A stretch of DNA of 64,000 bases. Origin: a virus (lineage: Duplodnaviria; Caudoviricetes). The DNA lies in IMG/VR virus record IMGVR_UViG_3300017917_003016, positions 128,001 to 192,000 of that record; one strand, given 5' to 3'. The position numbers were made by a program, and so were the translations under genes. The notes below the pieces were generated by a model, which saw only the letters and a list, made by a program, of their open reading frames with translations, did not search any database and had not been told where the DNA came from. This document shows, piece by piece, positions 11,860-48,349 of this stretch; the stretch's first letter is position 1, and every line of letters starts with the position of its first letter.

Positions 11860-13023
11860 TTAATGTGTTAGCACTTTATAAATTGCCTTATAGTCAATAT
11901 GGCTATCGTCATATCCTAATTCTTTGAACAGTGTTTGACAATTTTCTAACAGTTCTTTGGTGATGACGTGTTTAAAGTCACTGTAAAAGTGATTGAAGTT
12001 ATGCTCAACGATGGGAGCAATTTCTCTAGCGATTTCTAATTTTTCTCCAGCAGACAAATTGCAGTATCGATGCAGTTCTTGAACCACAAATTCAATTCTT
12101 TGATCATTGTCTTTGATATCATCATATGATTCATCGATGAATGGCGAGAAACTTTTGAAACCGTAGTGTTTTAGATAGGCTAGATTGCCTGGTGCAGCCA
12201 AAAGAATAAAAGGTTGTTTGCTGACAATAGGTTTAAATGTTTTTTCTGTTAAGTGCAGTTTATCATAGTAGAAAACCGTTTCGGTTACCACATGCCAAAA
12301 TGCACTGTAGTCTTTGACATTATTGTTTTCGTCGTGTATGTCTAGAGTTCTGGGAATATCAGCACTGGCACTACCGTGTACATAAGGTCGATCGATTACC
12401 AATTTGTCAAGTTTGGCCATGTGCGTTTGTATATGTTGTATGGCATTGTAACTAAGTTTAGTTTGAGGATCTGTCACCTCAACACGCCAATCTGATTCAT
12501 CGTTATCGGTAACTCCAAAACTGACCAGCCCTTGATTGAGTAACTGATGTTCTTTTAGAAGAGACACAAAATAAATCCTAAAACTTCGATCCCCATATAT
12601 AAGTCTATTATAGGTGATAAAGTCTTTTTTAGGTTGTTCCGTCATTGGTTTATTATAATTCAAAGTATGATAACCACGGAACCAATCTAGAGCCGCAAAG
12701 CCATGAAAAAAGTAGTAAAGCGAACTGAGTTTATACTTTGTGCAGATGTCAGTTACTAATCGAGATTTTTCACTGGACACAAAAACACCGGGTACTGGAA
12801 TATTTTCAAGATGATCTAAGTAAGGTTTTGTTGTTGAAAGTAATACCGGTTCTTGGTCATAAAAAAAGATTTTTCTCTCAGCGTGGGGAGTTTGCGTAAA
12901 TACCATTATGTCAGATCTTGACGCATTTACTATGATTGGTACTCCTCTATCTAGATACCAAAATAAAAAATCTTTAAAAATTTTATCGTAGAAAAATTCG
13001 TAAACGTGATCAACTTGGAGCAT
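11860..13023 (-). CDS. Glycosyltransferase-like protein of a family common in large-phage glycan islands
   Basis: C-terminal VTETVFY...LTEKTFKPI...PFILLAAPGNL.YLK.YGFKSF...DESYD; start uncertain. Confidence 0.5.
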   Translation of the reverse strand: MLQVDHVYEFFYDKIFKDFLFWYLDRGVPIIVNASRSDIMVFTQTPHAERKIFFYDQEPVLLSTTKPYLDHLENIPVPGVFVSSEKSRLVTDICTKYKLSSLYYFFHGFAALDWFRGYHTLNYNKPMTEQPKKDFITYNRLIYGDRSFRIYFVSLLKEHQLLNQGLVSFGVTDNDESDWRVEVTDPQTKLSYNAIQHIQTHMAKLDKLVIDRPYVHGSASADIPRTLDIHDENNNVKDYSAFWHVVTETVFYYDKLHLTEKTFKPIVSKQPFILLAAPGNLAYLKHYGFKSFSPFIDESYDDIKDNDQRIEFVVQELHRYCNLSAGEKLEIAREIAPIVEHNFNHFYSDFKHVITKELLENCQTLFKELGYDDSHIDYKAIYKVLTH

Positions 13024-13024
13024 T

Positions 13025-14272
13025 ATGTCATTTCAATTAAAAACTGTAGGTTTTGTTGGTATTGGTAAACTAGGACTTCCCTGCGCTGAGTCAATGGCGC
13101 AAAAATATGATGTTACGGGCTATGATATTTACTCTAAAAAGTCAGACAAGATCAAGATATCTGATAATTTAGAGGGTGCTTGTAAAAACAAGGATGTTAT
13201 TTTTGTGGCTGTGCAAACACCGCACGATCCAATATATGATGGTAGTCAACCTATCACACATTTGGACAACAAAGACTTTGACTATACTGCAGTCAAACAA
13301 GTGCTGGCTAACATAAATCAATATGTAAACAATCAACAACTAGTGGTTCTTATATCAACAGTTCTGCCCGGAACCACACGACGAGAACTACGTAAATGTA
13401 TATCTAATGCAAGATTTATATACAATCCTTATCTAATTGCTATGGGCAGTGTGGCCTGGGACATGGTCAATCCTGAAATGATCATTATTGGTACCGAAGA
13501 CGGCAGTTTAACTGGTGACGCTCAATTGCTCAAAGACTTCTATGATCCGTTAATGGAAAACAATCCTCGCTATGCCATTGGCACATGGGATGAAGCCGAA
13601 GCAATTAAAATTTTCTATAATACATTTATCAGTGCTAAGATTGGCCTAGTAAACATGATTCAGGACGTGGCTATGAAAAACGGTAACATCAACGTTGATA
13701 TAGTTACAGAGGCTCTGGCAAACAGCACTAAACGCATAGTCAGCAGCAAATATATGAAGGCAGGTATGGGAGATGCTGGACCTTGTCATCCCCGCGATAA
13801 CATAGCATTGCGTTGGTTAGCAGAACATTTAGATCTAGGCTATGATATTTTTGATACCATCATGCATGCCAGAGAAAAGCAAGCAGAAAATTTGGCTAAA
13901 TTTTTAATTCAACTACAAAAAGAAAACAATTTGCCCATAGTCATGCACGGCAAGGCCTACAAGCCAGACATCGACATCTTAGATGGTAGTTACAGTCTGT
14001 TAATCGGCAGTTATCTAAAAGAATCTAAGGCTAATTTCTTTTATGTCGATCCCATGACCAAAGATCTTTGGCACGACCCAAAGCCAGCAATTATTCTTTT
14101 GGCACACAATAGACAGGTTACCTATGGATATACAGGCACTGCAAGTGAACAGGATTTATATTTTATTCCCTCTGGTGGCAGCATCATTGTTGACCCGTGG
14201 AGAACCTTCACTACTGATATAAAAAACTATCGAGTAATTCACTATGGCAACACTAGAAAAATTTCATCTTGA
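13025..14272 (+). CDS. UDP-glucose/GDP-mannose dehydrogenase family protein
   Basis: GIGKLG Rossmann motif, EAIKIFYNTFI, GDAGPCHPRD catalytic Cys, GKAYKP. Confidence 0.88.
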   Translation: MSFQLKTVGFVGIGKLGLPCAESMAQKYDVTGYDIYSKKSDKIKISDNLEGACKNKDVIFVAVQTPHDPIYDGSQPITHLDNKDFDYTAVKQVLANINQYVNNQQLVVLISTVLPGTTRRELRKCISNARFIYNPYLIAMGSVAWDMVNPEMIIIGTEDGSLTGDAQLLKDFYDPLMENNPRYAIGTWDEAEAIKIFYNTFISAKIGLVNMIQDVAMKNGNINVDIVTEALANSTKRIVSSKYMKAGMGDAGPCHPRDNIALRWLAEHLDLGYDIFDTIMHAREKQAENLAKFLIQLQKENNLPIVMHGKAYKPDIDILDGSYSLLIGSYLKESKANFFYVDPMTKDLWHDPKPAIILLAHNRQVTYGYTGTASEQDLYFIPSGGSIIVDPWRTFTTDIKNYRVIHYGNTRKISS

Positions 14273-14756
14273 ACCTTTTTGGGATAACCAATATGTTAGA
14301 CTAGAATACAAAAATGAACCATTTAACAGCCACCTTGATGTGTCACGGTGGTTGGTAATGGGCTACGGACCTAAATTCACTGGCGACATGTGTGACATGA
14401 GAAAATCTCAGCCCGATTGGAACAATCAAATAATCAAACACTTTCAAAATTTGGGTTGGCAAGATGTCTGCACTAGTTACTACCGAATGACCAGCGGCAC
14501 TGTATTGCCCGAACATATTGATACCTACAAACGATACATAGAAATTTTTAACCTCAAAGGTTGCGAACAGACCATACAACGTGCATTGATATTTTTAGAA
14601 GATTGGGCCAGTGGTCACTATTTGGAAATAGAACAGGTTCCCATAACGGGCTGGGCACGAGGAGACTACTATGTTTGGTCTAAAGACACACCACATATGG
14701 CTGCAAACCTAGGTGCAAGACCTAGATATACTCTACAGGTCACTGGACACCTATGA
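14244..14756 (+). CDS. 2OG-Fe(II) oxygenase-like (double-stranded beta-helix) protein
   Basis: LPEHID (HxD), distal H in PHMAAN, RYTLQVTG. Confidence 0.6.
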   Translation: MATLEKFHLEPFWDNQYVRLEYKNEPFNSHLDVSRWLVMGYGPKFTGDMCDMRKSQPDWNNQIIKHFQNLGWQDVCTSYYRMTSGTVLPEHIDTYKRYIEIFNLKGCEQTIQRALIFLEDWASGHYLEIEQVPITGWARGDYYVWSKDTPHMAANLGARPRYTLQVTGHL

Positions 14757-15664
14757 TAATAAACAGCACCAACGAATGGGGAAGATTGCGCAGTGTAGTT
14801 GTGGGCACGGCCAATCATGCTAACTGGCCAACAAATGATCCAGTTTTTTCTCAAGAAAGTCTCAAAACAACATGGAAAGAAACCCCAGTGCCACAGGGTC
14901 CCGTTCCACAATGGATTATCGACGAAACCAACGAAGACTTAGAAAAATTAGTCGATACTTTGAAACTAATGTCTATAGATGTAGTACGTCCTAAAGACAT
15001 GAATTTTCAACAGTTGGGGGGAATGTATAACTACTGCCCCCGTGATCGCTTGTTAATCTGGAAAGATTATATAGTTGATACTGCCATGATGTATCCCTGT
15101 CGAAACATGGAAATTCATGCATTGTCTGACATAACCGCTGCCGGAAAAGTAATCAGCATGCCTCGTGATCAAGGTCTGATCCTTGATGCGGCCAATATCT
15201 GTCGATTAGGCAACACTTGGTTATTTTTAGAAAGTTCTAGTGGCAATCGTTTGGCCTACGAGTGGTTACAAAAACGATTTAGCGATATCAATATCGAGTT
15301 GGTAAATTTTTACTCTGGTGTACATATTGACTCGACTATATGTCCGCTGCGTGAGGGATTTGTAGTGTTAAATGCCAGTCGTGTCACAGCCAGCAATTGT
15401 CCTAAAGCCTTTGACGGGTGGACGAAGTTATGGGTTGACCATGTAGAAGCACAGAGTTTCTACCAATATCCCTATGCCAGCAAATGGATCGGTCTTAACA
15501 TGTTAAGTATCGATCCAAACACCGTTGTTGTTGATCAAAATCAAGTGCAGTTAATCAAAGATCTAGAAAAATTTGGGTTTACGGTAATACCTTTAGAACT
15601 ACGACATTCACGTACTCTAGGGGGAGGGTTCCACTGTGTAACCCTTGATTTACTTAGGGATTAA
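14753..15664 (+). CDS. Amidinotransferase (GATM/StrB1 family)
   Basis: NEWG.L..VVVG, YCPRD, LDAAN, HIDST, GGGFHCVTLD. Confidence 0.88.
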   Translation: MIINSTNEWGRLRSVVVGTANHANWPTNDPVFSQESLKTTWKETPVPQGPVPQWIIDETNEDLEKLVDTLKLMSIDVVRPKDMNFQQLGGMYNYCPRDRLLIWKDYIVDTAMMYPCRNMEIHALSDITAAGKVISMPRDQGLILDAANICRLGNTWLFLESSSGNRLAYEWLQKRFSDINIELVNFYSGVHIDSTICPLREGFVVLNASRVTASNCPKAFDGWTKLWVDHVEAQSFYQYPYASKWIGLNMLSIDPNTVVVDQNQVQLIKDLEKFGFTVIPLELRHSRTLGGGFHCVTLDLLRD

Positions 15665-15688: not shown

Positions 15689-16420
15689 ATGTCCCAAAGT
15701 TTTGCTAGGTACACAGAAACATCTGTAAAAGCCTACCAGTTCAATCCAAAGAAGAACGAGATCATTGATCGTAAAAAAGAAATATTGGATTCTATAATCG
15801 ATCATTATGGTAGTTCTCCTTCCTCTGTTCTATTCTACGGGTTTAGTCCTCTTATGCTGGGCTGTAATTCCAAACAGATTGCAGTGGCCAGTATAACTTC
15901 TGAAATAAAAACTTTTCTGGATACGCTGTCAATTAAATACAGTTATATCAAAGAAGAAGATTTAACACAGTATCGCAAGAAATTTAACTGGGTAATTGCT
16001 GGAGATGAGTATTTTACTTTTGCGCAGTCTGAACAGGAACAAATGACTAAAATACAAGAAACCTGCTCGTTGGCACAAGATCTAATGATTACAACCCTAA
16101 AAGACTACAAGAATCAAGATTTTCGAGACCGTGAATTTAGCCAGCCGTTGGCTGTGCACTGTCAAAATAATACAAAAATATTTTTAGAGAATCATGACCA
16201 TGATTTAACTGATAGAAATTCATGGCAAACCACAGTGTGGGAATTAGAAAAAACAAAGTCTAACGTATACGGACCTTTTGCCAGACGTAGCATGTATTTT
16301 AAACAGATGGCTAAATTTTCAATTGATGCAGGTGCTAAGAATTTCTTTGTACATAAGAATTTAATGTACAAAAGTTTAATAAAAAAGAACTACGAGCACG
16401 TAATATCAATTAGTTTTTAA
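15689..16420 (+). CDS. Hypothetical protein
   Basis: 243-aa ORF after AATAAATA motif. Confidence 0.7.
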   Translation: MSQSFARYTETSVKAYQFNPKKNEIIDRKKEILDSIIDHYGSSPSSVLFYGFSPLMLGCNSKQIAVASITSEIKTFLDTLSIKYSYIKEEDLTQYRKKFNWVIAGDEYFTFAQSEQEQMTKIQETCSLAQDLMITTLKDYKNQDFRDREFSQPLAVHCQNNTKIFLENHDHDLTDRNSWQTTVWELEKTKSNVYGPFARRSMYFKQMAKFSIDAGAKNFFVHKNLMYKSLIKKNYEHVISISF

Positions 16421-16453: not shown

Positions 16454-17728
16454 ATGGATATCAATAGCCAATTACAGCCAATTATTGCCGGCATGATAAA
16501 TGATCTTAAGGTACAGATCAATCATGAATTGCGGCAACAATTATCCGGTGAAATAGTCAAAAGTTTGGCTGCTACAGAATTGACCAGCATAATTCAACAG
16601 GCAGTTAAAAATCAAGTTGAGGCCAGATTAGAAAAATTTGATTTTGCTGGTACCGGACAGCAGGAATTAAAAATAGCATTTAAACAGATCACTGACACGG
16701 TTAATAAAAATCTTGCCGCAGCCACTAACAAACAAATCACTGAGTTTGTCAATCAAAAATTAGCCCAGATAAACATACAAGATTCAATTGCAGCCGTGGT
16801 ACAGACAGCCTTGGGAGAAAATCTCAAAGGTACTACATTTCCTGCGGGCAGTATTCATCATTCATCTGTTAACTTTGCTGGATTTCAAATAACAGGTAGT
16901 GCGATCAAAGGCGGAATCATTGAAAATTTTGGCAGCGTTGGCGTAGAAGATCGTGCCAGTCATGTTCAAATGACCATAATGGACCATGCTGTGGCTTTTG
17001 AAAATCCTGTATACAGCCCCGAGTTAAATGTCACAGGTAACCTCACAGTAAATGGTCAGGTTGTTTTATATGGTGGGTTAGACAGCGATTCTCCGGGATT
17101 TAAACAATTGGTTAATAAAACCAGCGATGCTGTTAGAGAAGACCTAAATGATGAACTATTCTCTGGCTTTAGTGACACTGTCTTTAATCAAATCAAAAAC
17201 CAAGGAATAGATCTAGACAAGGTTTCACAAGGCGGCCGCGAAATTGTCAGTGGCAACCGACTGGGTTATCATATTGTTGATACTAATATTCAACGTGTTG
17301 GGATATTGAATGATCTACAGACCTCCGGCGAAAATCTTCTGTGTGATACCTTGTATGTGACTGCGCGCCGCGTGGGTATTAACACCATGGAGCCGACTAA
17401 TACCCTGAGCATATGGGATCAGGAAGTTGAATTTTCTGTAACCAAACATAGTCAAGACACTGGCTACATCGGCACTCCTCGAAATCAAAAACTAGTCTTA
17501 GGATCAAACAACAAACAAAATCTTGTGCTTAATCCAGACGGCACTGTCAAGGTAGAACACCTAGATATTGGTCCCATTGCCATGACCAGCCATAATGTAA
17601 TACCTAATTATCCCAGCAGGGCTGGACATATAGTTTGGAACACTGCACCAGCAGAAGGTGGAGTTATAGGATGGGTCTGTCTAGGTGGTGCCCAGTGGGC
17701 AGGGTTTGGCAAGATAGAAAACCATTGA
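16454..17728 (+). CDS. Hypothetical protein, possibly virion-associated
   Basis: Coiled-coil N-terminus; fibre-like motifs RVGINTMEP and GWVCLGG.QW. Confidence 0.65.
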   Translation: MDINSQLQPIIAGMINDLKVQINHELRQQLSGEIVKSLAATELTSIIQQAVKNQVEARLEKFDFAGTGQQELKIAFKQITDTVNKNLAAATNKQITEFVNQKLAQINIQDSIAAVVQTALGENLKGTTFPAGSIHHSSVNFAGFQITGSAIKGGIIENFGSVGVEDRASHVQMTIMDHAVAFENPVYSPELNVTGNLTVNGQVVLYGGLDSDSPGFKQLVNKTSDAVREDLNDELFSGFSDTVFNQIKNQGIDLDKVSQGGREIVSGNRLGYHIVDTNIQRVGILNDLQTSGENLLCDTLYVTARRVGINTMEPTNTLSIWDQEVEFSVTKHSQDTGYIGTPRNQKLVLGSNNKQNLVLNPDGTVKVEHLDIGPIAMTSHNVIPNYPSRAGHIVWNTAPAEGGVIGWVCLGGAQWAGFGKIENH

Positions 17729-17753
17729 CAATCTTTAAGATTGTACGTATAAT
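17725..17753 (+). promoter_or_regulatory. sigma70-type promoter
   Basis: TTGACA (17725-17730), 17 nt, TATAAT (17748-17753). Confidence 0.8.
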
Positions 17754-17783: not shown

Positions 17784-18815
17784 TTGACCACTCAACGCAT
17801 CGGCTTTGCCTGCAAATGGATTGATGACCCCAGTCAAGTTAACGGCATCAAAGCCAAAGACACCTGCAAAATCTATAACACTGGCACTACCACAGTAGCA
17901 TGGTTAAATAGACAGGCACGAGATGTGTCTGTGGCAAAACTGTGGTCTTTAATGCAACAGAACATTGAATCTACACAAAAACTTATCGAAAAGGTTGGTG
18001 CACTAGATGAACACCTTAGAATGGTTCGTCTCTCAAGTGATATACTTCCAGTATATACAGAGTCTAATTGGAGTTGGTTTTGGCGTGAGCCTGACGTTAG
18101 GCTTTATGCTGAACGGGCGTTTGGCAAGGTTGGTGATGCTGCTAGGCGCCTTGGTGTGCGCATTAGTTTTCATCCGGGTCAATTCTGCGTTTTGGCTTCA
18201 GATTCTGTCAACATTGTTGACCGTAGTATAGAAGAATTTGAATATCACGCGGACATGGCTCGCTGGATGGGCTACGGCCGTGAATTCCAAGACATGAAGA
18301 TCAACGTACACATTGCCGGCCGGCAAGGCCCTGAAGGTATTCGTCGTGTACTAAACAGACTCACACCCGAAGCACGTAATTGTATTACTATTGAAAACGA
18401 GGAGATGAAACATGGACTTGACGATTGTCTCAGCATCAGTGATTGTGTGCCTATTGTTCTTGACATACACCATCATTGGGTTCGCGAGGGGGAATACATT
18501 CAAGCAAATGATGATAGAGTTAAACGAGTTTGGGATAGTTGGCGCGGCCGTCGTCCTACTTGCCATTATAGTGTTAGTCGAGAAGACGTCCTTGTAAACC
18601 ATTGCGGCCAAACTCTGCCCGATCATCAGATCTTGTTAGAAACAGGCTATAAGAAAAGCCATCTCCGTGCACACAGCAACTTCTACTGGAACTCTAAGGT
18701 CAACGATTGGGCCTTGACTTTCTGGGAAAAATTTGATATAATGTGTGAATCAAAAGCAAAAAACCTTGCTAGTTTTGCCTTGTTTGAGCATGCTAAGGCT
18801 AACGGGGTAGTGTAA
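17784..18815 (+). CDS. uvsE: UV damage endonuclease (UvsE/UVDE)
   Basis: RIGFACK, MVRLSSDILP, RISFHPGQF, INVH, TIENEE, LDIHHH, RAHS, MCESKAKN. Confidence 0.9.
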   Translation: MTTQRIGFACKWIDDPSQVNGIKAKDTCKIYNTGTTTVAWLNRQARDVSVAKLWSLMQQNIESTQKLIEKVGALDEHLRMVRLSSDILPVYTESNWSWFWREPDVRLYAERAFGKVGDAARRLGVRISFHPGQFCVLASDSVNIVDRSIEEFEYHADMARWMGYGREFQDMKINVHIAGRQGPEGIRRVLNRLTPEARNCITIENEEMKHGLDDCLSISDCVPIVLDIHHHWVREGEYIQANDDRVKRVWDSWRGRRPTCHYSVSREDVLVNHCGQTLPDHQILLETGYKKSHLRAHSNFYWNSKVNDWALTFWEKFDIMCESKAKNLASFALFEHAKANGVV

Positions 18816-19947: not shown

Positions 19948-20538
19948 ATGCCTAATCTAGTACCAATGGTTCTTGAACGCACCAGTCAAGGTGAACGCAG
20001 TTATGATTTGTATTCAAGACTGCTCAAAGACCGCATTGTGATTCTTGACACTGACGTCAACGAACACTCAGCAAGTCTTATTGTTGCTCAATTGCTGTTC
20101 CTTGAAGCAGAAGATGCTGAAAAAGATATTTTGTTCTATATCAACAGTCCAGGGGGTATTATCACTGCTGGTATGAGCATTTATGATACCATGCAGTTTA
20201 TTCGTCCTCAGGTCAGCACCATTGTAATGGGACAGGCCTGCTCAATGGGCAGTTTTCTTGCACAAGCAGGGGCCCCAGGCAAACGTATGATGCTGCCCAA
20301 TGCTCGACACATGATTCACCAACCTAGCGGTGGTGCACGTGGCATGGCTTCAGACATTGAAATTTCCTACAAGGAAATCATGCACTGGAAGCAACGTCTA
20401 ACAGAACTTTATGTAGAGCACAATACCTCAGGTAAAACCTATGAAGATTTTGAGCGGGACATGGATCGTGACACTTTTATGAGTGCACAGGAATCTCTGG
20501 AGTATGGCCTCTGTGACGAAATTATCACTAAACGATAA
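19948..20538 (+). CDS. clpP: ATP-dependent Clp protease proteolytic subunit
   Basis: [28 protein letters not shown] (catalytic Ser), MIHQP (His), RD. Confidence 0.95.
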
Positions 20539-21841
20539 TTTTTGCTCTAGCCCGTGGTTTCATGTCAAAATAAATCCCGGCGGTGACTTTGTTCCTTGCC
20601 GCTGGGACGCCGTCACGCTGACTAGTGATTATAATATTGCAAATACCAGTATCAGCGAATATATAAATTCCTTGCCCATGCAAACTTTACGCATGGATCT
20701 ACTAGAAGGAAAACAAATAAAAATCTGTGATTCATGTAAAAATGAAGATCGGAATCACAAGGTCAGCGGAAGAAGTCGACAACTGCTCAAAAGTGCAATA
20801 GACATAGAAAATTTTAATAAAACTTTTTGTGCCAGTCCGCATTTTGAATGGTTTGACTATTCCTATAGAAATCAAGGTCTGACTAAAAATTTGCCTGTAG
20901 ACCTTCAAATTGATTTGGGCAATGCCTGCAACAGCGGGTGTTTAATGTGCCATCCAATTTATAGTAGTAGGTTGCATACAGATTATCAAAAACTTTACAA
21001 ATCAGATCCAATTGTTTTTGATTACACTACACCAAAACGAAATTGGACCGATGACAAATTTCTAGTGGATAAGTTTGTAGATGAACTATCAACTATTCCA
21101 AATTTGAGATATCTGCATTTACTTGGTGGTGAAACACTTTATCTAGAAAGTTTTTATGCTATATGTGAAAAACTTATCGAAAAAGGGTTGGCTAAAAATA
21201 TAAGCCTAGGCACTACAACAAACTGCACAGTGTATACCCCTAGATTAGAAAAAATACTACAAGAGTTCAAACATGTTCATATTGGTCTGAGTATCGAAGC
21301 ATTTCATCCTCTCAACGATTACATTAGATGGCCTAGCAAATTAGAAGACGTTCAAGAAAATATCAAAAAATTTGTGGCTTTGAGAAACTCCTCAGATCTA
21401 CAGTTGAGTTTGAGAATTACTCCCTGTAATCTCAGTATTGGTCACTTGGATACTGTGTTTGATTTTATGATCAAACATTCTATAATTGCTGAAAGTTGTA
21501 ATCTCTTAGTGAACCCTAGTTTCTTACGAATTGAAATTCTACCGCATAACCTGTTAATGTCCGCTTTAGATAAAATCAATAATGTGATTAAAAAACACAA
21601 GTTGATCCCCAATTATGATGCATATGTCAATAGAAGAAACGAGTCTATTAGAAATGAAATTGTTTCTAAGACTATTTTTGAATACAAAGACCTATTAGAA
21701 AATCTGCAACCAGTTGAAAATCCAAAGCAGGAAAGACTGAATTTGGTTAAATTTTTAAAGGGATTTGAAGAACTTAGAAAAAACTGTATCCTAGACTATC
21801 TGCCAGAATATGAAGAATTTTTACGAAGCCACAATTACTAG
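20483..21841 (+). CDS. Radical SAM protein with N-terminal Cys-rich (SPASM/Twitch-like) domain
   Basis: CNSGCLMC (CxxxCxxC), GGE motif, FVPCRW and CDSC; true start probably downstream of 20483. Confidence 0.8.
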
Positions 21842-38800: not shown

Positions 38801-41800
38801 TAACATCGCTAATATTGTATTGTCTCCCGCGGGAACTTTAATAGCCAACGTACCGAGCCAAAGAATAATGATCAGTGGTGCAAACATAAGCATCACCGGT
38901 GATGATGGTAATCTGCAGTATACACACATTCCTAGTGGTATTACCTGGAACAAATATGACACTAGTCCAAGTTATACTGGCTATTACAGGCCCGACAGTA
39001 TAGGTTTATATCGAGGCGACTATAGTTCACTGATGGACATAGCGCCAGAAAACATTAAGATTAGCAGTTTAGGAAGCACAAAATTTGAAGCCAATGCTAC
39101 AACTATATACACTGTTGGTAATGTCCGAGCCGGTAATATGTTCTTGTCCGCTAGCGGCAGCATTACCTTTGCTGATGGCACAGTACAGACTACGGCTGCT
39201 AGTTATTCAAATGTACAGGTGGCTACATACCTGCCCACATATACCGGCACAGTTGGAGCCAGTTTAGTTAATTCAACCGGTAACATACTTGGCGCCGGCC
39301 TATCAGTGTTTGGAAATGTCAGAATGGGCATTGCTGGTGCTGTTAGTGGTCAATTTCACTCATTTGTTGGTAACGTAACTCAAACATCATCGGGTGGTGC
39401 TGTCTACATTAATACCACCGGTAATATCATTGCGGCCAATATTACTGCGGCCAACATCACCACAACCGGTAACGTATTATTTGGCAATGTCGTCACTGGT
39501 AATATAATCGCTGGAAATCTGTTGGTTGGTAATATTGTCAGCACTGCCAACATAAATGCCATAGGTCACTTAAGAGTCTACAGTGGCCAACAGGCTTTTG
39601 GTGGGTCGGGTAATATACAACTAATTAGTTCATCCGGTACTCCATGGCTAAATCTAGGGATTACCCCAGGTCCTAGCAATGCCATAATAGAAATGCAAGT
39701 TGCAACAGCAACCTCACCTGCCCTACGTTTTAGTGCATCATCAGCCGGTGGATCAAACATCACTTTGTACAGTACAGGAACTGTTGCTGGTGCCTATACC
39801 TATACAAATATCATAGATTCAGGAAGTGGTGCAGATATATTATTAGCCACAAGAAACCTAGTGATTTCAGGCAGCGGCGCATCAGCATCAGTAACGGTTA
39901 ATATAAACGGCAGCATCACTGCTAACTCTTTAACGGCGAGCGGTAATACTTCGCATGGTACAGTGGGTGCGATCAGTGGTCAATTCCACTCATTTGTTGG
40001 TAACGTAACTCAGGTTACATCGGGTGGTGCGGTTTACTTCAATACCACCGGTAACCTATTAGTTGGTGGTAATGTAGCACTATTTGGCAACACCAGATTT
40101 GGCACAGCGGGTATTGTGTCGGGTGCATATCACAACTTCGTTGGTAACATTAACCAATACACATCGGGAGGTGCAGTTTATTTCAACACCACCGGTAACT
40201 TGCTAGTCGGTGGTATTGCACAAATTTCCAACATTAGATTAGGGGCCAGCGGTAATATTCAATTCGCTGACGGCACCGTACAGACCACTGCGGCTACTGG
40301 GGCTGTTAGTACAATTTATGCAAATGTGGGTGTAATACTTGGCAACCCAACTAGCAGTAATCTTGCAGTTGGAACCAATGCAGGATCAACCAATCAAGGC
40401 GCTAATGCTATATCAATAGGATTTAACGCCGGTAGTCAAAATCAAGGCGTTCAAGGCATAGCGATCGGCGCAACGGCAGGTAACGCATTTCAGGGCACTG
40501 TCGCAGTGGCCATTGGTGTTGGAGCAGGTCAGATAAATCAAGCAAGTGGCGCTACCGCAATTGGTTATCAAGCGGGGCAAAATGGACAAAGAGGTTTGAG
40601 CGTTGCCATTGGTTATCAAACAGGACAAAATGATCAGCAAGGTACAGCAACAGCAGTTGGTATGTGGGCAGGACAGAATAGCCAAGGAAACAACACTGTG
40701 GCTATGGGTTATAATGCTGCAGTTTACTCTCAAGGAGACCAAGGCATAGCCTTGGGATATTATGCTGGTTGGTCTAGCCAAGGACCGAGTTCAATAGCCA
40801 TTGGCGAAAGCGCCGGGCAAACTTCTCAGGGAACTGCTGCTGTTGCCATTGGTAGACTTTCAGGCACAGATAATCAAGGGCCTTATACTGTTGCCATTGG
40901 TTATCAAGCAGGATATCAATCTCAAAGCGCAAACAGTGTGGTGATCGGAACCAACGCAGGTTACTTGAATACACCCGCCAATACCATTGTAATATCAGGC
41001 GATGGTAGTAACCTAAGTCCCGCAAGTTGGGGTACTTTCCTTAACCCGATTAAACCAGACACATCACCCAGTAACATACTTTATTACAACACCACTACCA
41101 AAGAAGTGACCTATGGTGCTGCTGCTGCAGGCAGTTATTCAAATGTACAGGTAGCCACATACTTGCCAACTTACACCGGCACAGTTAGTGCTAGCCTAGT
41201 TAACTCAACTGGTAACGTCCTGGCTGCTGGCCTATCAGTGTTTGGTAATGCTAGAATAGGTATTGCCGGAGCGGTTAGTGGACAGTTCCACTCAGTTGTA
41301 GGTAACATAACCCAGACATCATCAGGTGGTGCTGTGTACATCAACACCACTGGTAATATACTAGCCAACGTTGGTACATTTTCTAGTCTAAATGTCAACG
41401 GTAGCATTACTGCCAGTAACCAAATTAGCATTACTAGCCTTACTGGTTTGGGAATAGGCATAGGGGCCAGTGCCCCTTCTACCGGGTTAAGTCTTCAAGC
41501 GGGATCTGGAAGTATACTTTTGGGCACCTCGGGCGCAATAACAAACGTGCAAATAGGAGCGGGTTCAACAACTTCAATTGGTATTGGAACTAGTCCGCCA
41601 ACAGGTGGTATACAAATAGGATCAGGTGCATCAACTTCTATTGGTATTGGGGCAACTGCACCAGGATCAGGTATACAAGTAGGATCAGGCTCTGGTTGTA
41701 TAGTTGTAACCGGTAGCACAGTAACATTGGGACAAGCCGGAGCATCGGTTGCAATTGGTACAAGTTTGCCCGGTGGCGGTGGCATTGCAATAGGCGGCAG

Positions 41801-42710
41801 TGGTACAAGTATAGGCATTGGAATAGCACCAACTGTTGGCGGAGGTATAGTAATCGGTGGTACGAGTGGTGTAAACGTTTCTGTCTCTGGCGCCGGTATT
41901 ATAAACCTTAATAATGGTACACAATTTCTACAGGTTAACTCTGGTAACATACTTGTTTCTGGAACTTTGTTAACCACAACCGGTAGCAACATTCTACTTG
42001 CGGGCAATACCTCACATGGTACTGTGGGCGTAGTATCAGGAGCATATCACAACTTCGTTGGTAACATCAACCAGTACACATCAGGTGGTGCTGTGTACAT
42101 CAACACCACTGGCAATGTAATGGCCCAAGTAGGTAACTTTGTTGATGTAAACCCCTTGGGTAATCTGGTTGCGGGACAGTCTATTGGGGATACAACTGCT
42201 GTTTGGAATAATGCCTACGTGGGTAACGTTTGGGCATATGGTAATATCATACCTAGTTCTAGCAATACCTATACTTTGGGAAGTTCCACTGTTTGGTGGA
42301 GTAGAGTGTGGTCAGTGGCAGTCAATGCACAATACGCTGACTTGGCAGAAAACTACACCAGTGACTGCAACTATGAACCCGGAACTGTGGTGGTTTTTGG
42401 TGGTGAAAAAGAAGTTACAGTGTCAACCGCATCTCATGATCCTGCTGTGGCAGGTGTAGTTTCTACCAATCCAGCCTATCTGATGAATGCAGCCACAGAG
42501 GGTATATCTGTTGCACTACAAGGACGAGTACCCACTTGGGTCAAAGGACCAGTACGTAAGGGCGATAGATTGGTCTCTAGTAAAATCAAAGGAATTGCTG
42601 AACGCCTATACACTCCAAATTATGTTCCAGGATGTATCATTGGCAAGTCTTTGGAAAATATAGATACTGATGAAATTTGCCTGATCGAAGTGGTAGTAGG
42701 CAGAGTTTAA
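35868..42710 (+). CDS. Long tail fibre/adhesin (2280 aa) with repeat modules, YadA-head-like repeats and C-terminal chaperone-like domain
   Basis: Repeats YSNVQVATYLPTY, SGGAVY.NTTGN, 14-residue A(I/V)AIG..AG..SQG; AQYADLAENY...IEVVVGRV end. Confidence 0.8.
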   Translation: MASLTKVKITNIDTSIVYVADPLVSLNYGSTLANTDIGFVFNRDGGISSNVALFWNETTDRLTVAYTTSAGSINSNISIAKYANIAADWYFGNLAGGTNGNTYVIGNILPTANGLYNFGSPTARWNIGYFAASTIDLGGSQISVDPVNGFKFSVGGTGTPTFLASNGLVSGSSLTTSGTLNVGTTAAVGSNLTVGGYINSLGNIIAAAGTFNNLVINLGNIIAQGGYFIGNGSQLTGIPAGYSNVQTAAYLNTQGYNLYSNVNVAAYLNTQGYNLYSNVNVAVYLTNNGYINTNSAYSNANVVSYLTTNNYTTQLYVDSANTSLKNYVDGQITAANAGVTAANIGIQGFINLGNVNLRNYVDGQITAANAGVVAANVGMKGYVDSQVSAANIAWQANAYQQQALIGNIQSSSYSNVNVNAYLTTNGYINTNSAYGNGNVASYLPTYTGNLSAGNLTVNGSITISGSDGNISGVNNLTASGYINTSGNILAKNIVGSLVTASQANITTVGNLTGLSVAGTTTVYGTAQFASAIRDNVGSLGSTGRFLMSSSTGALWTIPYGLGNFASNVLVDQLSVNVAVAGSNVIFVSQFGLTTQGWINATGNVMAGDATVFKANINSTQNSTEFNNGALVVAGGVGIAKDVYIQGNLYVANVIATASNVLTITSPLLYLVSNAYPYNYDIGFYGHFVGGVGNIYQHSGFVRNYLDGTWRLFSNVITEPSEGIVTFDSGILYDPIWTGGMDSYGNINLKNNSLLNINNPPGTYSNSPINASWNANGYVQINIQNINSVGNLVSADFIATAPDGNDGSKFIDLGINGNNWSSGSWTVSGANDGYLYINQGNLTIGTETPGKVPKIHVGGLLSQNITTTFDISTTYFTTQLNINSQNLSAAVVNGGTSGIGNIGAASGRFGTVFGSDLNVTGNVLSAGGTFNNIVVNSGNINAVGGYFIGNGAFLTGIVTGGGSSYSNVQVATYLPTYSGNIANIVLSPAGTLIANVPSQRIMISGANISITGDDGNLQYTHIPSGITWNKYDTSPSYTGYYRPDSIGLYRGDYSSLMDIAPENIKISSLGSTKFEANATTIYTVGNVRAGNMFLSASGSITFADGTVQTTAASYSNVQVATYLPTYTGTVGASLVNSTGNILGAGLSVFGNVRMGIAGAVSGQFHSFVGNVTQTSSGGAVYINTTGNIIAANITAANITTTGNVLFGNVVTGNIIAGNLLVGNIVSTANINAIGHLRVYSGQQAFGGSGNIQLISSSGTPWLNLGITPGPSNAIIEMQVATATSPALRFSASSAGGSNITLYSTGTVAGAYTYTNIIDSGSGADILLATRNLVISGSGASASVTVNINGSITANSLTASGNTSHGTVGAISGQFHSFVGNVTQVTSGGAVYFNTTGNLLVGGNVALFGNTRFGTAGIVSGAYHNFVGNINQYTSGGAVYFNTTGNLLVGGIAQISNIRLGASGNIQFADGTVQTTAATGAVSTIYANVGVILGNPTSSNLAVGTNAGSTNQGANAISIGFNAGSQNQGVQGIAIGATAGNAFQGTVAVAIGVGAGQINQASGATAIGYQAGQNGQRGLSVAIGYQTGQNDQQGTATAVGMWAGQNSQGNNTVAMGYNAAVYSQGDQGIALGYYAGWSSQGPSSIAIGESAGQTSQGTAAVAIGRLSGTDNQGPYTVAIGYQAGYQSQSANSVVIGTNAGYLNTPANTIVISGDGSNLSPASWGTFLNPIKPDTSPSNILYYNTTTKEVTYGAAAAGSYSNVQVATYLPTYTGTVSASLVNSTGNVLAAGLSVFGNARIGIAGAVSGQFHSVVGNITQTSSGGAVYINTTGNILANVGTFSSLNVNGSITASNQISITSLTGLGIGIGASAPSTGLSLQAGSGSILLGTSGAITNVQIGAGSTTSIGIGTSPPTGGIQIGSGASTSIGIGATAPGSGIQVGSGSGCIVVTGSTVTLGQAGASVAIGTSLPGGGGIAIGGSGTSIGIGIAPTVGGGIVIGGTSGVNVSVSGAGIINLNNGTQFLQVNSGNILVSGTLLTTTGSNILLAGNTSHGTVGVVSGAYHNFVGNINQYTSGGAVYINTTGNVMAQVGNFVDVNPLGNLVAGQSIGDTTAVWNNAYVGNVWAYGNIIPSSSNTYTLGSSTVWWSRVWSVAVNAQYADLAENYTSDCNYEPGTVVVFGGEKEVTVSTASHDPAVAGVVSTNPAYLMNAATEGISVALQGRVPTWVKGPVRKGDRLVSSKIKGIAERLYTPNYVPGCIIGKSLENIDTDEICLIEVVVGRV
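36609..36719 (+). repeat. 51-bp near-perfect tandem repeat inside the tail fibre gene
   Basis: gctgcttatctgaacacacaggggtataac...tattcaaatgtcaa repeated at 36609 and 36660. Confidence 0.9.
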
Positions 42711-42748
42711 ACTCTATGTCGATAAATAAGTAAAATATAGAATAAATT

Positions 42749-42922
42749 ATGTCTGGAAATTTATACATAGGTCCTGGTATTACAATAGGCAGCGGTATTA
42801 CTGTTACCATGTTGCCCTACGTTCCTGAGCCCGGGTGGGATTTTTCTGGTGACATGATGGTACTAACTGGCACAGTTGATCTGACCACAGAGACTGGTGC
42901 TGATGTAGATTTAAATGCATAA
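42749..42922 (+). CDS. Small structural-type protein (57 aa)
   Basis: Manual translation MSGNLYIGPGITIGSGITVT...; after GATAAATA (42721-42728). Confidence 0.55.
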   Translation: MSGNLYIGPGITIGSGITVTMLPYVPEPGWDFSGDMMVLTGTVDLTTETGADVDLNA

Positions 42923-42934
42923 AAGAGAATAAAC

Positions 42935-43900: not shown

Positions 43901-43912
43901 AAGGAATAAATT

Positions 43913-44344
43913 ATGGCAAAAACATTTACAGCACCATTTGCTCAAGCACCAAAATGTGTAACTGCAGTAAGTTCAAATACTGCAGCAGGTATCACCACAG
44001 ATTCAATATCGAACTCAACGCTACTGCTGACAGCAGGGGCTGACGGTGCTCTAATAACTCGACTAGTAGCAATGCCAAGAACCACAATTGGAGCAACTGC
44101 TGCTTATCTTTTCCATTCAAATAACAGTGGAACTACACAAAGAATTATAGATAGCATCACTTTAGGAGCACAAACTCTTGCGAGTTCTACTCAAAGTTCT
44201 GGTATTATATTGACTGCATTTACCAATATCAGTGAAACTACTCCCTTGCGTTTAGGGGCAGGCGAATCAATTTATGTTGGTATAGGAAACACCCAACCGT
44301 CTGGTAATGGTATTGTGTTTAGTGCCCAATATACGGATTTCTGA
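43913..44344 (+). CDS. Structural protein
   Basis: AAGGA RBS; operon context. Confidence 0.65.
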   Translation: MAKTFTAPFAQAPKCVTAVSSNTAAGITTDSISNSTLLLTAGADGALITRLVAMPRTTIGATAAYLFHSNNSGTTQRIIDSITLGAQTLASSTQSSGIILTAFTNISETTPLRLGAGESIYVGIGNTQPSGNGIVFSAQYTDF

Positions 44345-44346
44345 CC

Positions 44347-46103: not shown

Positions 46104-46118
46104 ATTGTAATTTAACAG

Positions 46119-46147
46119 TTGACAACACTGTCAATTGATCTTATAAT
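46119..46147 (+). promoter_or_regulatory. sigma70-type promoter
   Basis: TTGACA (46119-46124), 17 nt, TATAAT (46142-46147). Confidence 0.8.
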
Positions 46148-46180
46148 AGGCTATCGATACTAGCAAAAAAGGTCGCAATT

Positions 46181-48332: not shown

Positions 48333-48349
48333 TTAGATTTTAAACCATT

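What the first reader, a model, noticed from the sequence alone, without database searches (positions are those of the whole stretch)
11860..15664. NDP-sugar dehydrogenase + 2OG-Fe(II) oxygenase + amidinotransferase operon: candidate guanidino-sugar or base-modification pathway
Seen: three overlapping, translationally coupled genes with intact catalytic motifs (PCHPRD; HxD...H; D, H and C-terminal Cys of the amidinotransferase), divergent from a glycosyltransferase-like gene. Known: UGD-type enzymes make uronic acids, StrB1-type enzymes move amidino groups from Arg to amino-cyclitols, and phage 2OG oxygenases often hydroxylate bases. Inference: an undescribed pathway adding an amidino-containing sugar to the virion, host surface or DNA.
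Basis: partly seen in the sequence, partly recalled or inferred. Interest (0 to 1): 0.68.

Follow-up and report, generated by a model that had tools for sequence, protein, structure and literature searches.

The report
Phage guanidino-sugar tailoring gene cassette
A giant uncultured phage carries a conserved group of sugar-modifying genes built around a streptomycin-type amidinotransferase; it most likely makes a positively charged guanidino sugar for a glycan, but no product or target has been shown, and the same cassette is common in aquatic phages.

Summary
At 11860-15664 a GT-B-fold gene (A, minus strand) lies head-to-head, 1 nt apart, with three overlapping genes. B is a UGD-family dehydrogenase. 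C is a 170-aa Fe(II)/2OG oxygenase. D is a StrB1-type amidinotransferase (PDB 1BWD E 1.5e-53, catalytic Asp/His/Cys aligned).

The genes are co-conserved. In 62 well-flanked loci of this jumbo-phage lineage, A, B and C lie within 7 kb of D in 58, 57 and 60. A second, diverged viral set keeps the same genes in shuffled order, and adds a half-size DegT sugar aminotransferase, usually directly upstream of D, and N_Twi radical SAM paralogs. One such radical SAM gene is in this window at 20483-21841. Bdellovibrionota genomes link the same families.

All four complete relatives encode the mini-DegT about 95-110 kb from C-D; our record is truncated there.

Best reading (about 0.55): keto-sugar, then transamination, then Arg-dependent amidination, then glycosyl transfer. 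This is streptidine logic applied to a nucleotide sugar. The acceptor and the target are inferred. A DNA-base route is unlikely: no ThyA-family hydroxymethylase was found.

Only cyanophage S-SCSM2R (2025) annotates such genes, as 'antibiotic synthesis'. This scan has already noted the cassette on other phage DNA, with similar readings.

The parts
11860..13023 (-). A: GT-B-fold glycosyltransferase-like protein (387 aa), divergent from B
   Evidence: No Pfam, PHROG or NCBIfam hit. The AF2 model has pLDDT 89. VIA-align places T4 beta-glucosyltransferase first (Z 10.8), then alpha-1,3-fucosyltransferase (9.7), T4 AGT (9.6) and POGLUT1 (9.6); Foldseek also ranks T4 BGT first, E 4.9e-4. The segment T259-E260-K261...P265 is invariant. 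A lies within 7 kb of D in 58 of 62 loci, and 1-3 paralogs occur in the second viral set.
13025..14272 (+). B: UDPG/MGDP-dehydrogenase-family NDP-sugar dehydrogenase (415 aa), non-canonical subfamily
   Evidence: PF03721 and PF00984 score above their cut-offs, and phrog_9148 matches at E 2.7e-100. The closest solved structures are UDP-glucose 6-dehydrogenases, at E about 3e-17. The catalytic Cys is kept (GPCHPRD). NPYLIAMG replaces the NPEFLREG of UGDs in all 84 homologs examined. TIGR03026 scores 152 bits, below its 189.8 cut-off.
14244..14756 (+). C: minimal Fe(II)/2-oxoglutarate oxygenase (170 aa), overlapping B by 29 nt and D by 4 nt
   Evidence: No Pfam hit. The AF2 model has pLDDT 92. 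All 50 top VIA matches are Fe/2OG oxygenases at Z 9.4-13.2, with PiuC and prolyl hydroxylases first and sugar-acting PolD, PasI, EvdO2 and HygX at Z 10-11.7; Foldseek agrees. H91, D93, H151 and R161 are invariant. C is 29% identical (E 3e-22) to S-SCSM2R ORF308, which also directly precedes an amidinotransferase.
14753..15664 (+). D: StrB1-type L-arginine amidinotransferase, short form (303 aa)
   Evidence: phmmer against the PDB gives StrB1 (1BWD) E 1.5e-53, AGAT 1e-25, SxtG 4e-24 and HsvA 3e-23. The triad D145/H191/C295 and residues D98, R117 and D193 are aligned and conserved. D lacks about 35 residues that StrB1 has at 138-172. It falls in a viral short-form clade that is separate from bacterial StrB1-like proteins.
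15689..16420 (+). E: accessory 243-aa protein with a class I SAM-methyltransferase-like fold (present in about half of the relatives)
   Evidence: No Pfam, PHROG or NCBIfam hit. The ESM Atlas structure search gives TM 0.75-0.81 to Methyltransf_11/25 clusters. E lies within 7 kb of D in 32 of 62 loci. The glycine-rich SAM motif is atypical, so activity is uncertain.
16454..17728 (+). F: phage-only 424-aa protein, possibly fibre-like; membership in the module is uncertain
   Evidence: No family hits. The ESM Atlas gives only a weak lead to tail-like trimerisation proteins. F lies near D in 46 of 62 loci.
17725..17753 (+). Perfect sigma-70 consensus promoter ahead of the UvdE gene; probable 3' boundary of the B-F transcription unit
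   Evidence: TTGACA-17-TATAAT, 12 of 12 positions. UvdE (17784-18815; PF03851 E 1.7e-34) changes position among relatives.
20483..21841 (+). N_Twi radical SAM enzyme (452 aa), a module-associated family lying 5 kb downstream
   Evidence: NF033640 scores 243 bits against a cut-off of 170. A CxxxCxxC motif is present at C149/C153/C156. Homologs lie within 7 kb of D in 10 of 18 loci of the second viral set and in 13 of 62 loci of this lineage, and three paralogs flank the amidinotransferase in Bdellovibrio.

Best explanation
The cassette is the local core of a dispersed, phage-encoded nucleotide-sugar tailoring pathway. Its signature step is amidination of an amino sugar to a guanidino sugar.

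Proposed order:
1. B, a UGD-family dehydrogenase, oxidises an NDP-hexose.
2. An SDR dehydratase or decarboxylase makes a 4-keto sugar.
3. The half-size DegT aminotransferase converts the keto sugar into a 4-amino sugar. The SDR and the mini-DegT are encoded elsewhere in this phage lineage.
4. D transfers the amidino group of L-arginine onto that amine through its Cys-His-Asp triad, as StrB1 does on inosamine phosphate.
5. C, the oxygenase translationally coupled to D, hydroxylates or oxidises the same substrate.
6. A, and its paralogs in other phages, transfers the finished sugar to a macromolecular acceptor, most likely a virion or cell-envelope glycan.

Shown: the enzyme families, the intact catalytic residues and the gene co-conservation. 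Inferred: the substrate, the order of steps, the role of C and the acceptor.
For: Enzyme identity:
- D is a genuine StrB1-type amidinotransferase with all catalytic and substrate-binding residues.
- C is an Fe/2OG oxygenase by fold and has an invariant HxD...H...R.
- A has a GT-B fold.
- B belongs to the NDP-sugar dehydrogenase family.

Co-conservation:
- In 62 well-flanked loci of this lineage, A is near D in 58, B in 57 and C in 60, while E, F and UvdE vary.
- When B is unlinked it is still in the genome (G004).
- In a diverged viral set (D 45-52% identical; n=18), the counts are A 17, B 16, C 18, mini-DegT 15 and N_Twi rSAM 10, in shuffled order. The mini-DegT is often directly upstream of D and overlaps it.

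Independent contexts:
- Cyanophage S-SCSM2R has mini-DegT, rSAM, GT, a C homolog, the amidinotransferase and GT2 together.
- Bdellovibrio has UGD(47% to B)-SDR-mini-DegT 3.5 kb from its amidinotransferase.
- A Pseudobdellovibrionaceae MAG has mini-DegT, an A-like gene and the amidinotransferase in a row.
- The S-SCSM2R and Bdellovibrionota amidinotransferases fall outside the viral short-form clade, grouping with the bacterial StrB1-like proteins (quick tree, only partly supported forks). If that placement holds, the association spans two clades.

The aminotransferase:
- The mini-DegT keeps the PLP motifs, including the SFxxK lysine.
- Its best matches are NDP-4-keto-sugar 4-aminotransferases (PseC, WecE, DesI), though below their cut-offs.
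- All four complete (>=98%) relatives encode it.

Wider glycan investment: the phage's own record has another sugar island with GT4, a 4,6-dehydratase, a C-methyltransferase and a GT2-like gene.
Against: - No product, acceptor or target is known for any member of this module.
- The held record of this phage (56% complete) contains no DegT gene. The amine-forming step is therefore inferred from relatives.
- B lacks both Glu residues conserved in canonical UGDs and falls below the TIGR03026 cut-off. Its reaction may not be a simple 6-oxidation.
- C's best structural neighbours are protein prolyl hydroxylases, not sugar-acting enzymes, although the Z-scores are nearly tied.
- A's best neighbours are the T4 DNA glucosyltransferases.
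- The loci counted share ancestry, so the counts overstate independent support.
- Known StrB1 substrates are aminocyclitol phosphates, not nucleotide sugars (established knowledge of streptidine biosynthesis).
Confidence: 0.55

Rival explanations
1. The module makes a small diffusible aminocyclitol- or aminoglycoside-like metabolite (a streptidine-type guanidino-cyclitol glycoside) during infection. This would be an 'antibiotic' or signalling compound, not a glycan decoration.
For: The closest characterised relative of D is StrB1 of streptomycin biosynthesis. Oxidation, DegT-type transamination and amidination is exactly the streptidine logic (established knowledge). Twitch-type radical SAM enzymes accompany the module; the aminocyclitol dehydrogenase BtrN is such an enzyme (from memory). 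The S-SCSM2R authors call the genes antibiotic-synthesis genes (PMC12801897).
Against: None of the ORFs that were scanned with Pfam in the examined neighbourhoods is an inositol-phosphate, inosose or 2-deoxy-scyllo-inosose synthase, a cyclitol kinase or an exporter; only part of each neighbourhood was scanned. The constant partners are a UGD-family enzyme and one to several GT-B proteins, and in S-SCSM2R five glycosyltransferases. That pattern fits glycan assembly better.
Confidence: 0.12
2. The pathway is directed at a protein. C is a prolyl/lysyl-hydroxylase-type enzyme that creates a hydroxylated residue on a phage structural protein (perhaps the fibre-like F). A then glycosylates that residue, with B and D tailoring the sugar or D amidinating a side-chain amine.
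For: C's top fold matches are PiuC, P. putida P4H and PHD-type prolyl hydroxylases at Z 12.4-13.2. A's neighbours include the protein O-glucosyltransferases POGLUT1/2 at Z about 9.5. F, possibly fibre-like, follows in 46 of 62 loci. In S-SCSM2R a different amidinotransferase and a prolyl-hydroxylase-like protein were detected in virion preparations (PMC12801897).
Against: The fold matches are nearly tied with small-molecule and sugar-acting oxygenases. F is absent from many carriers, including the second viral set. No StrB1/AGAT-type enzyme is known to act on proteins (established knowledge). This reading overlaps with the best explanation on all points except the role of C.
Confidence: 0.1
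3. It is a DNA hypermodification system. An oxygenase creates a hydroxylated base and a T4-BGT-like transferase adds a tailored (amidino) sugar, protecting the phage genome from restriction.
For: A's best structural matches are the T4 beta- and alpha-glucosyltransferases, which act on DNA (Z 10.8 and 9.6). AlkB-type nucleic-acid oxygenases are among C's fold neighbours at Z about 10.9-11.6.
Against: There is no ThyA-family (dCMP/dUMP hydroxymethylase) gene in the own record or in a complete 337-kb relative. C has 170 aa and is P4H-like, with no TET/JBP match listed. The Z-scores for A are tied within about 1 with fucosyltransferases and protein glycosyltransferases. Bdellovibrionota chromosomes carry the same gene families in ordinary sugar operons.
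Confidence: 0.08
4. The genes are unrelated auxiliary metabolic genes that merely sit together. D makes a free guanidino compound from arginine (guanidinoacetate, homoarginine, an amidinated polyamine) to reprogram host nitrogen metabolism.
For: Other family members do this (AGAT, HsvA; hits). D is annotated in public sources as a dimethylargininase or glycine amidinotransferase.
Against: D scores far higher to StrB1 than to AGAT (185 against 93 bits). C-D, mini-DegT-D and the A/B association persist through extensive gene-order change and in two amidinotransferase clades. That is not expected for unrelated neighbours.
Confidence: 0.07

Closest known systems
StrB1, L-arginine:inosamine-phosphate amidinotransferase of Streptomyces griseus (PDB 1BWD)
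   Same: It aligns over the full length at E 1.5e-53. The Cys-His-Asp triad and the Asp/Arg substrate-binding residues are aligned and conserved. The presumed logic is the same: arginine donates an amidino group to an amine that a DegT-type aminotransferase has made.
   Different: D is about 35% identical to Streptomyces homologs. It lacks about 35 residues (StrB1 138-172) and lies in a separate viral short-form clade. Its partners are a UGD-family enzyme, a mini 2OG oxygenase and GT-B proteins, not cyclitol enzymes. The acceptor is unknown.
ORF301-310 module of Synechococcus phage S-SCSM2R (PQ898602; PMC12801897, 2025), annotated as 'antibiotic synthesis genes'
   Same: A C homolog (29% identical, E 3e-22) directly precedes an amidinotransferase (34% identical to D). 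Both lie among glycosyltransferases, a mini-DegT and a radical SAM gene.
   Different: Its amidinotransferase is the long form and groups with Bdellovibrionota enzymes. tblastn with A finds no homolog anywhere in the record, and no B-like gene is annotated in the 18.6-kb stretch around its amidinotransferase. It carries GT-A-type transferases instead. No function has been tested there either.
Ugd-ArnA-ArnB route to UDP-4-amino-4-deoxy-L-arabinose (established lipid A modification pathway)
   Same: The same sequence of enzyme families occurs in the wider module: UGD-family dehydrogenase, SDR, then DegT-family 4-aminotransferase. Examples are the Bdellovibrio L129 operon and SDR-mini-DegT in G004.
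   Different: The resemblance concerns the logic only. B lacks the canonical Glu residues, the aminotransferase is half-size, and an amidinotransferase follows in place of a formyltransferase. No orthology was tested.
T4 beta-glucosyltransferase (PDB 1C3J/1NZD) and GT10-type fucosyltransferases
   Same: They share the GT-B two-domain fold with A (Z 10.8 and 9.7). A's invariant 'LTEK' segment recalls the GT10 nucleotide-sugar motif; this rests on memory and was not tested.
   Different: Identity is 9-12%, there is no sequence-level match, and the Z-scores are tied with many GT-B families. The acceptor is unknown.
UGD - NadE-like - carbamoyltransferase - GT clusters of Kyanoviridae (Synechococcus phage Bellamy, Pelagibacter phage HTVC008M)
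   Same: B is 57% and 49% identical to their 'UDP-glucose dehydrogenase' and carries the same NPYLIA[MQ]G / CHPRD signature. In relative G004, B sits next to a NadE-like gene just as it does there.
   Different: Those clusters have no amidinotransferase or C homolog. Here B is joined to the C-D pair.
NCBIfam NF033640, N_Twi_rSAM (twitch-domain radical SAM; uncharacterised)
   Same: The window gene at 20483-21841 scores 243 bits against a cut-off of 170, and the Bdellovibrio paralogs score 308-361 bits.
   Different: The family has no known reaction. In this window the gene lies 5 kb from D, behind a ClpP gene, so linkage here is looser than in other phages.

Membership tests
Amidinotransferase family (StrB1/AGAT type, guanidino-group-modifying enzyme superfamily) | Full-length sequence similarity to characterised amidinotransferases | tested here: met
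   StrB1 (1BWD) E 1.5e-53 over residues 3-302. AGAT, SxtG and HsvA score 1e-25 to 3e-23.
Amidinotransferase family (StrB1/AGAT type, guanidino-group-modifying enzyme superfamily) | Catalytic Cys-His-Asp triad (StrB1 C332/H227/D179) | tested here: met
   C295, H191 and D145 align to these positions. H191 and D145 are invariant and C295 is kept in at least 90% of 19 diverse homologs.
Amidinotransferase family (StrB1/AGAT type, guanidino-group-modifying enzyme superfamily) | Guanidino/substrate-binding Asp and Arg (StrB1 D108, R127, D229) | tested here: met
   D98, R117 and D193 are aligned and conserved.
Amidinotransferase family (StrB1/AGAT type, guanidino-group-modifying enzyme superfamily) | Pfam PF02274 score above the gathering threshold | tested here: not met
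   16.7 bits against a 22.8 cut-off, and only the C-terminal 57 residues match. The Pfam model is centred on arginine deiminases. Direct comparison with solved amidinotransferases is decisive instead.
Amidinotransferase family (StrB1/AGAT type, guanidino-group-modifying enzyme superfamily) | Arg-dependent amidino transfer to an amine | not testable with these tools
   Needs an enzyme assay.
UDP-glucose 6-dehydrogenase (canonical UGD) | UDPG_MGDP_dh N-terminal, central and C-terminal domains | tested here: inconclusive
   The N-terminal (66.8 bits) and central (58.2 bits) domains pass. The C-terminal domain scores 23.7 bits, below its cut-off of 30.
UDP-glucose 6-dehydrogenase (canonical UGD) | NCBIfam nucleotide-sugar dehydrogenase (TIGR03026) or UGD equivalog cut-offs | tested here: not met
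   TIGR03026 scores 152.3 bits against 189.8. UGD equivalogs score 49-109 bits against cut-offs of 670-757.
UDP-glucose 6-dehydrogenase (canonical UGD) | Catalytic Cys in the GxCxPKD motif | tested here: met
   GPCHPRD aligns with the GGSCFPKD of 4A7P. The Cys is kept in 83 of 84 homologs.
UDP-glucose 6-dehydrogenase (canonical UGD) | The two Glu residues of the NPEFLREG motif (their catalytic role is taken from established knowledge of UGDs) | tested here: not met
   NPYLIAMG in the window protein. All 84 phage and Bdellovibrio homologs have NPY[LF]IA[MQ]G.
Fe(II)/2-oxoglutarate-dependent oxygenases | Double-stranded beta-helix fold | tested here: met
   The AF2 model has pLDDT 92. All 50 top VIA matches are Fe/2OG oxygenases at Z 9.4-13.2, covering 129-165 of the 170 residues. 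Foldseek gives probability 1.00.
Fe(II)/2-oxoglutarate-dependent oxygenases | HxD/E...H iron triad and an Arg about 10 residues after the distal His | tested here: met
   H91, D93, H151 and R161 are invariant in 31 sequences and are kept in S-SCSM2R ORF308.
Fe(II)/2-oxoglutarate-dependent oxygenases | Match to a curated sequence model (Pfam 2OG-FeII_Oxy families) | tested here: not met
   No Pfam hit even at E 10. A profile search against PDB sequences gives only an insignificant AtsK match, E 0.78.
GT-B glycosyltransferases | Two Rossmann-like domains in the GT-B arrangement | tested here: met
   The AF2 model has pLDDT 89 and pTM 0.90. T4 BGT scores Z 10.8 (262 residues aligned), followed by many GT-B enzymes at Z 7-9.7.
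GT-B glycosyltransferases | Membership in a sequence-defined GT family, or a recognised donor-binding motif | tested here: inconclusive
   No Pfam, NCBIfam or PDB sequence match. An invariant T-E-K segment is present, but its equivalence to the GT10 motif was not tested.
NF033640 N_Twi_rSAM | Score above the curated cut-off, and the CxxxCxxC cluster motif | tested here: met
   243.3 bits against a cut-off of 170. C149-x3-C153-x2-C156 is present.
Phage DNA hypermodification of the hmC/hmU-plus-glycosyltransferase type | dCMP/dUMP hydroxymethylase (ThyA family) in the genome | tested here: not met
   PF00303 is absent from the own record and from the complete 337-kb relative G004, while the control genomes are detected.
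Phage DNA hypermodification of the hmC/hmU-plus-glycosyltransferase type | Modified nucleosides in virion DNA | not testable with these tools
   Needs LC-MS of nucleosides.

The most novel reading that the evidence does not exclude
Aquatic phages of at least two large lineages synthesise a nucleotide-activated guanidino sugar. One candidate is a 4-guanidino-4-deoxy pentose or hexuronate, made by a UGD-like enzyme, an SDR, the mini-DegT and an amidinotransferase, then edited by a minimal 2OG oxygenase and N_Twi radical SAM enzymes. They attach it to virions or to the infected cell surface. This would be a cationic glycan chemistry not described for any virus, and would give first functions to three uncharacterised enzyme families (the short amidinotransferases, the mini-DegT and N_Twi_rSAM).
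Probability: 0.35. Interest if true: 0.8.

Novelty: new variant of a known kind. Interest (0 to 1): 0.6.

Why it matters
Phage-encoded glycan and nucleotide-sugar islands are known, but almost none has a known product. This cassette is very common: more than 7000 close homologs of D in metagenomes and more than 560 viral contigs. It centres on an enzyme whose chemistry is well defined, which gives a concrete, testable prediction: a guanidino sugar.

If the prediction holds, it would add a positively charged sugar to the repertoire of viral glycans. That could bear on adsorption, on evasion of host defences or on virion stability.

It would also assign functions to the short-form amidinotransferases, the half-size DegT aminotransferases, the Glu-less UGD subfamily and the N_Twi radical SAM family. 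A cultured carrier (Synechococcus phage S-SCSM2R) makes the experiments feasible.

Tried and rejected
I used the search for related loci instead.
- The search for related loci on genome contigs with the 19-sequence alignment A1 failed for lack of a conserved stretch. The 8-sequence alignment A4 worked.
- A viral scan with the distant short form P0140 found no confirmed relative.
- The five best 'bacterial' hits (L115-L119; MAGs named Haliscomenobacter, Legionella and others) carry the phage synteny. I treated them as phage contigs binned into MAGs, not as host genes.
- I asked whether E (243 aa) is a diverged mini-DegT. tblastn gives no similarity, and the ESM Atlas points to a methyltransferase fold, so I rejected the idea.
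- HTVC008M gp163, the 162-aa ORF after its UGD, is not a C homolog (E 0.86).
- Profile searches of A and C against PDB sequences gave nothing significant.
- A literature search for 'guanidino sugar' found no paper. The only paper combining amidinotransferase, glycosyltransferase, radical SAM and virus is the S-SCSM2R description.
- The late-promoter motif TATAAATA is not enriched in the window and none lies upstream of B. No convincing promoter for A or B was found.
- The careful phylogeny did not finish in the time allowed, so only the quick SH-aLRT tree is reported.

Full report
**Where the window lies.** The window is bases 128001-192000 of a 201.7-kb IMG/VR virus record, estimated 56% complete. 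Relatives with direct terminal repeats are 329-354 kb, so this is a jumbo phage of an abundant uncultured lineage.

**Checking the observation.**
- A: 11860-13023 (-).
- B: 13025-14272 (+).
- C: 14244-14756 (+).
- D: 14753-15664 (+).

B and C overlap by 29 nt, and C and D by 4 nt. The start codons of A and B are separated by a single base, head-to-head. Downstream lie E (15689-16420), F (16454-17728) and a UvdE UV-endonuclease gene (17784-18815). The UvdE gene has its own perfect sigma-70 promoter at 17725-17753.

**B, the dehydrogenase.** B belongs to the UDPG/MGDP dehydrogenase family: Pfam N-terminal and central domains score above their cut-offs, and phrog_9148 matches at E 2.7e-100. Its nearest solved structures are UDP-glucose 6-dehydrogenases, at E about 3e-17.

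The catalytic cysteine is present (GPCHPRD). However, the NPEFLREG motif of canonical enzymes is replaced by NPYLIAMG. The same replacement occurs in all 84 phage and Bdellovibrio homologs I examined. The protein also falls below the NCBIfam nucleotide-sugar dehydrogenase cut-off. B is therefore a distinct subfamily, and its exact reaction should not be assumed.

**C, the oxygenase.** C matches no sequence model, but it folds confidently (pLDDT 92). All 50 best structural matches are Fe(II)/2OG oxygenases at Z 9.4-13.2. PiuC and prolyl hydroxylases come first, and sugar- or nucleoside-acting enzymes (PolD, PasI, EvdO2, HygX) follow at Z 10-11.7. H91, D93, H151 and R161 are invariant.

**D, the amidinotransferase.** D matches StrB1 (1BWD) at E 1.5e-53, far better than it matches AGAT at 1e-25. 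StrB1's D179/H227/C332 triad and its D108, R127 and D229 align to D145/H191/C295 and to D98, R117 and D193. D is a short form that lacks about 35 residues of StrB1.

**A, the transferase.** A has no sequence match, but it models as a GT-B glycosyltransferase (pLDDT 89). Its best matches are T4 beta-glucosyltransferase (Z 10.8), an alpha-1,3-fucosyltransferase (9.7), T4 AGT (9.6) and POGLUT1 (9.6).

**Co-conservation within the lineage.** Two scans of viral contigs returned 106 loci with D at 60-72% identity; more than 560 exist. I counted the 62 loci that have at least 5 kb on both sides of D.

| Gene within 7 kb of D | Loci (of 62) |
|---|---|
| A | 58 |
| B | 57 |
| C | 60 |
| E | 32 |
| F | 46 |
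| UvdE | 45 |

C-D is the constant pair. Where B is missing locally, it is elsewhere in the genome. In the complete 337-kb relative G004, B lies 130 kb away, beside a NadE-like gene, an SDR, an FkbM methyltransferase and a split TPP enzyme. This is the same UGD/NadE pairing seen in Synechococcus phage Bellamy and Pelagibacter phage HTVC008M.

**A wider module.** Scanning with a 44%-identical representative of D gave a second viral set. There the same families recur in shuffled orders: B (often on the opposite strand), C, D and one to three A-like paralogs. Two further families join them:
- a half-size DegT aminotransferase, usually immediately upstream of D and overlapping it;
- radical SAM genes homologous to the window gene at 20483-21841.

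Among the 18 well-flanked loci of this set, the counts are as follows.

| Gene within 7 kb of D | Loci (of 18) |
|---|---|
| A | 17 |
| B | 16 |
| C | 18 |
| mini-DegT | 15 |
| rSAM | 10 |

The window gene is a member of NF033640, N_Twi_rSAM (243 bits against a cut-off of 170).

The mini-DegT (about 200 aa) keeps the PLP motifs, including the Schiff-base lysine. Its best matches are NDP-4-keto-sugar 4-aminotransferases such as PseC, WecE and DesI, though below their cut-offs.

**Independent contexts outside these two sets.**
- Cultured cyanophage S-SCSM2R has mini-DegT, rSAM, GT, a C homolog (29% identical, E 3e-22), an amidinotransferase and GT2 in one run.
- A Bdellovibrio chromosome has UGD (47% identical to B)-SDR-mini-DegT 3.5 kb from a StrB1-like gene that is flanked by three N_Twi rSAM paralogs.
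- A Pseudobdellovibrionaceae MAG has mini-DegT, an A-like gene and an amidinotransferase in a row.

In a quick tree, the jumbo and second-set D proteins form a short-form viral clade. The S-SCSM2R enzyme groups with Bdellovibrionota within the long-form bacterial StrB1-like group. The association therefore spans two amidinotransferase clades.

**The missing aminotransferase in this phage.** The held record contains no DegT gene. However, all four complete (>=98%) relatives (G004, G010, G012, G013) encode the mini-DegT. In G004 it lies in a GT1-SDR-mini-DegT-FolE run. In the closest complete relative it lies about 95 kb beyond C-D, which in our record would fall past the end of the sequence. 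Its presence in this phage is therefore likely but not shown.

The own record does carry a second sugar island, at about 40-49 kb of the record. It holds a GT4, a 4,6-dehydratase, a second SDR, a sugar C-methyltransferase and a GT2-like gene.

**Interpretation.** The recurrent set is a dehydrogenase, an SDR, a DegT-type aminotransferase, a StrB1-type amidinotransferase and GT-B transferases. This reproduces the oxidise, transaminate, amidinate logic of streptidine biosynthesis, but in a nucleotide-sugar and glycosyltransferase setting. It also resembles the Ugd-ArnA-ArnB route to a 4-amino sugar.

I therefore favour a guanidino-sugar pathway whose product A transfers to a macromolecule (confidence 0.55).
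- Shown: the enzyme families, the intact catalytic residues and the co-conservation.
- Inferred: the substrates, the order of steps, what C does and the acceptor.

**Rivals.**
- A diffusible aminocyclitol-like metabolite (0.12). No cyclitol synthase, kinase or exporter turned up among the ORFs that I scanned with Pfam in these neighbourhoods.
- A protein hydroxylation-glycosylation system, with C as a P4H-like enzyme (0.10).
- DNA hypermodification (0.08). No ThyA-family hydroxymethylase occurs in a complete relative, and C is not TET/JBP-like.
- Unrelated auxiliary genes, with D making a free guanidino compound (0.07). This is contradicted by the conservation pattern.

**Prior knowledge.** The only paper found that lists these gene types together in a virus is the 2025 description of S-SCSM2R. 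It calls them antibiotic-synthesis genes and reports no experiments (PMC12801897). No paper contains the phrase 'guanidino sugar'.

Earlier notes of this scan, on other phage genomes, describe the same cassette and reach similar readings. I arrived at the module independently. From those notes I took only the NF033640 lead, which I tested.

**Limits.**
- The loci counted are related by descent, so the counts are not independent events.
- The tree is a quick one.
- No tool can establish the chemistry.

Noticed in passing
window 13021-13027: The start codons of A (minus strand) and B (plus strand) are separated by a single base. Each gene's promoter and 5' UTR must therefore lie inside the other's coding sequence. 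The 1-3 nt head-to-head spacing is kept in relatives (for example L009-L014).
   Followed up: partly
window 13025-14272, and 84 homologs in loci L002-L121, L129: The phage 'UDP-glucose dehydrogenase' subfamily (phrog_9148) uniformly has NPY[LF]IA[MQ]G where canonical enzymes have NPEFLREG, and CHPRD where they have CFPKD. Both conserved Glu residues are therefore missing. The enzyme may not complete the usual four-electron oxidation, or it may use the His next to the Cys instead.
   Followed up: partly
L005:7392-7922 (-); the same about 600-bp insert occurs in L004, L006, L015, L016, L036: In some relatives, a 176-aa ORF on the opposite strand sits between C and D. Its N-terminus looks like a GIY-YIG homing endonuclease, which would make it a mobile insertion splitting the otherwise overlapping C-D pair.
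   Followed up: no
window 17725-17753: A perfect sigma-70 consensus promoter (TTGACA-17-TATAAT) lies directly upstream of the UvdE UV-damage endonuclease gene. This suggests host-RNAP (early) expression, independent of the cassette.
   Followed up: no
window 19948-21841: A ClpP protease gene (PF00574, E 5e-77) overlaps the start of the N_Twi radical SAM gene. The ClpP-rSAM adjacency is kept in several relatives (L010, L018).
   Followed up: no
G000:C1 about 40000-49300 (locus L252:4390-13285), outside the window: The phage has a second sugar island: GT4, an NDP-hexose 4,6-dehydratase-like SDR, a second SDR, a TylC3-type sugar C-methyltransferase and a GT2-like gene. This implies a branched or deoxy sugar in addition to the cassette studied here.
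   Followed up: partly
L121:5647-7879; L248:7492-9018 (G004); L225: A GTP cyclohydrolase I (FolE) gene repeatedly sits directly after the mini-DegT gene, and in L121 between the mini-DegT and the amidinotransferase. Whether this reflects a pterin or 7-deazapurine link or mere mosaicism is unknown.
   Followed up: no
L115-L119 (MAGs labelled Haliscomenobacter, Bacteroidetes UBA11400, Terrimicrobiaceae, Legionella): Contigs with the full phage synteny (A, B, C, D, UvdE; D 62-64% identical) are binned into bacterial MAGs. Two lie in one Haliscomenobacter MAG, which may hint at a host or may simply be binning contamination.
   Followed up: no
L111 (G004:C1:184000-199000): In a complete relative, B lies in a separate cluster with a split TPP-dependent enzyme, an FkbM methyltransferase, an SDR and a NadE-like amidotransferase. 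Next to this cluster are a flap endonuclease and a Gram-negative porin gene.
   Followed up: partly
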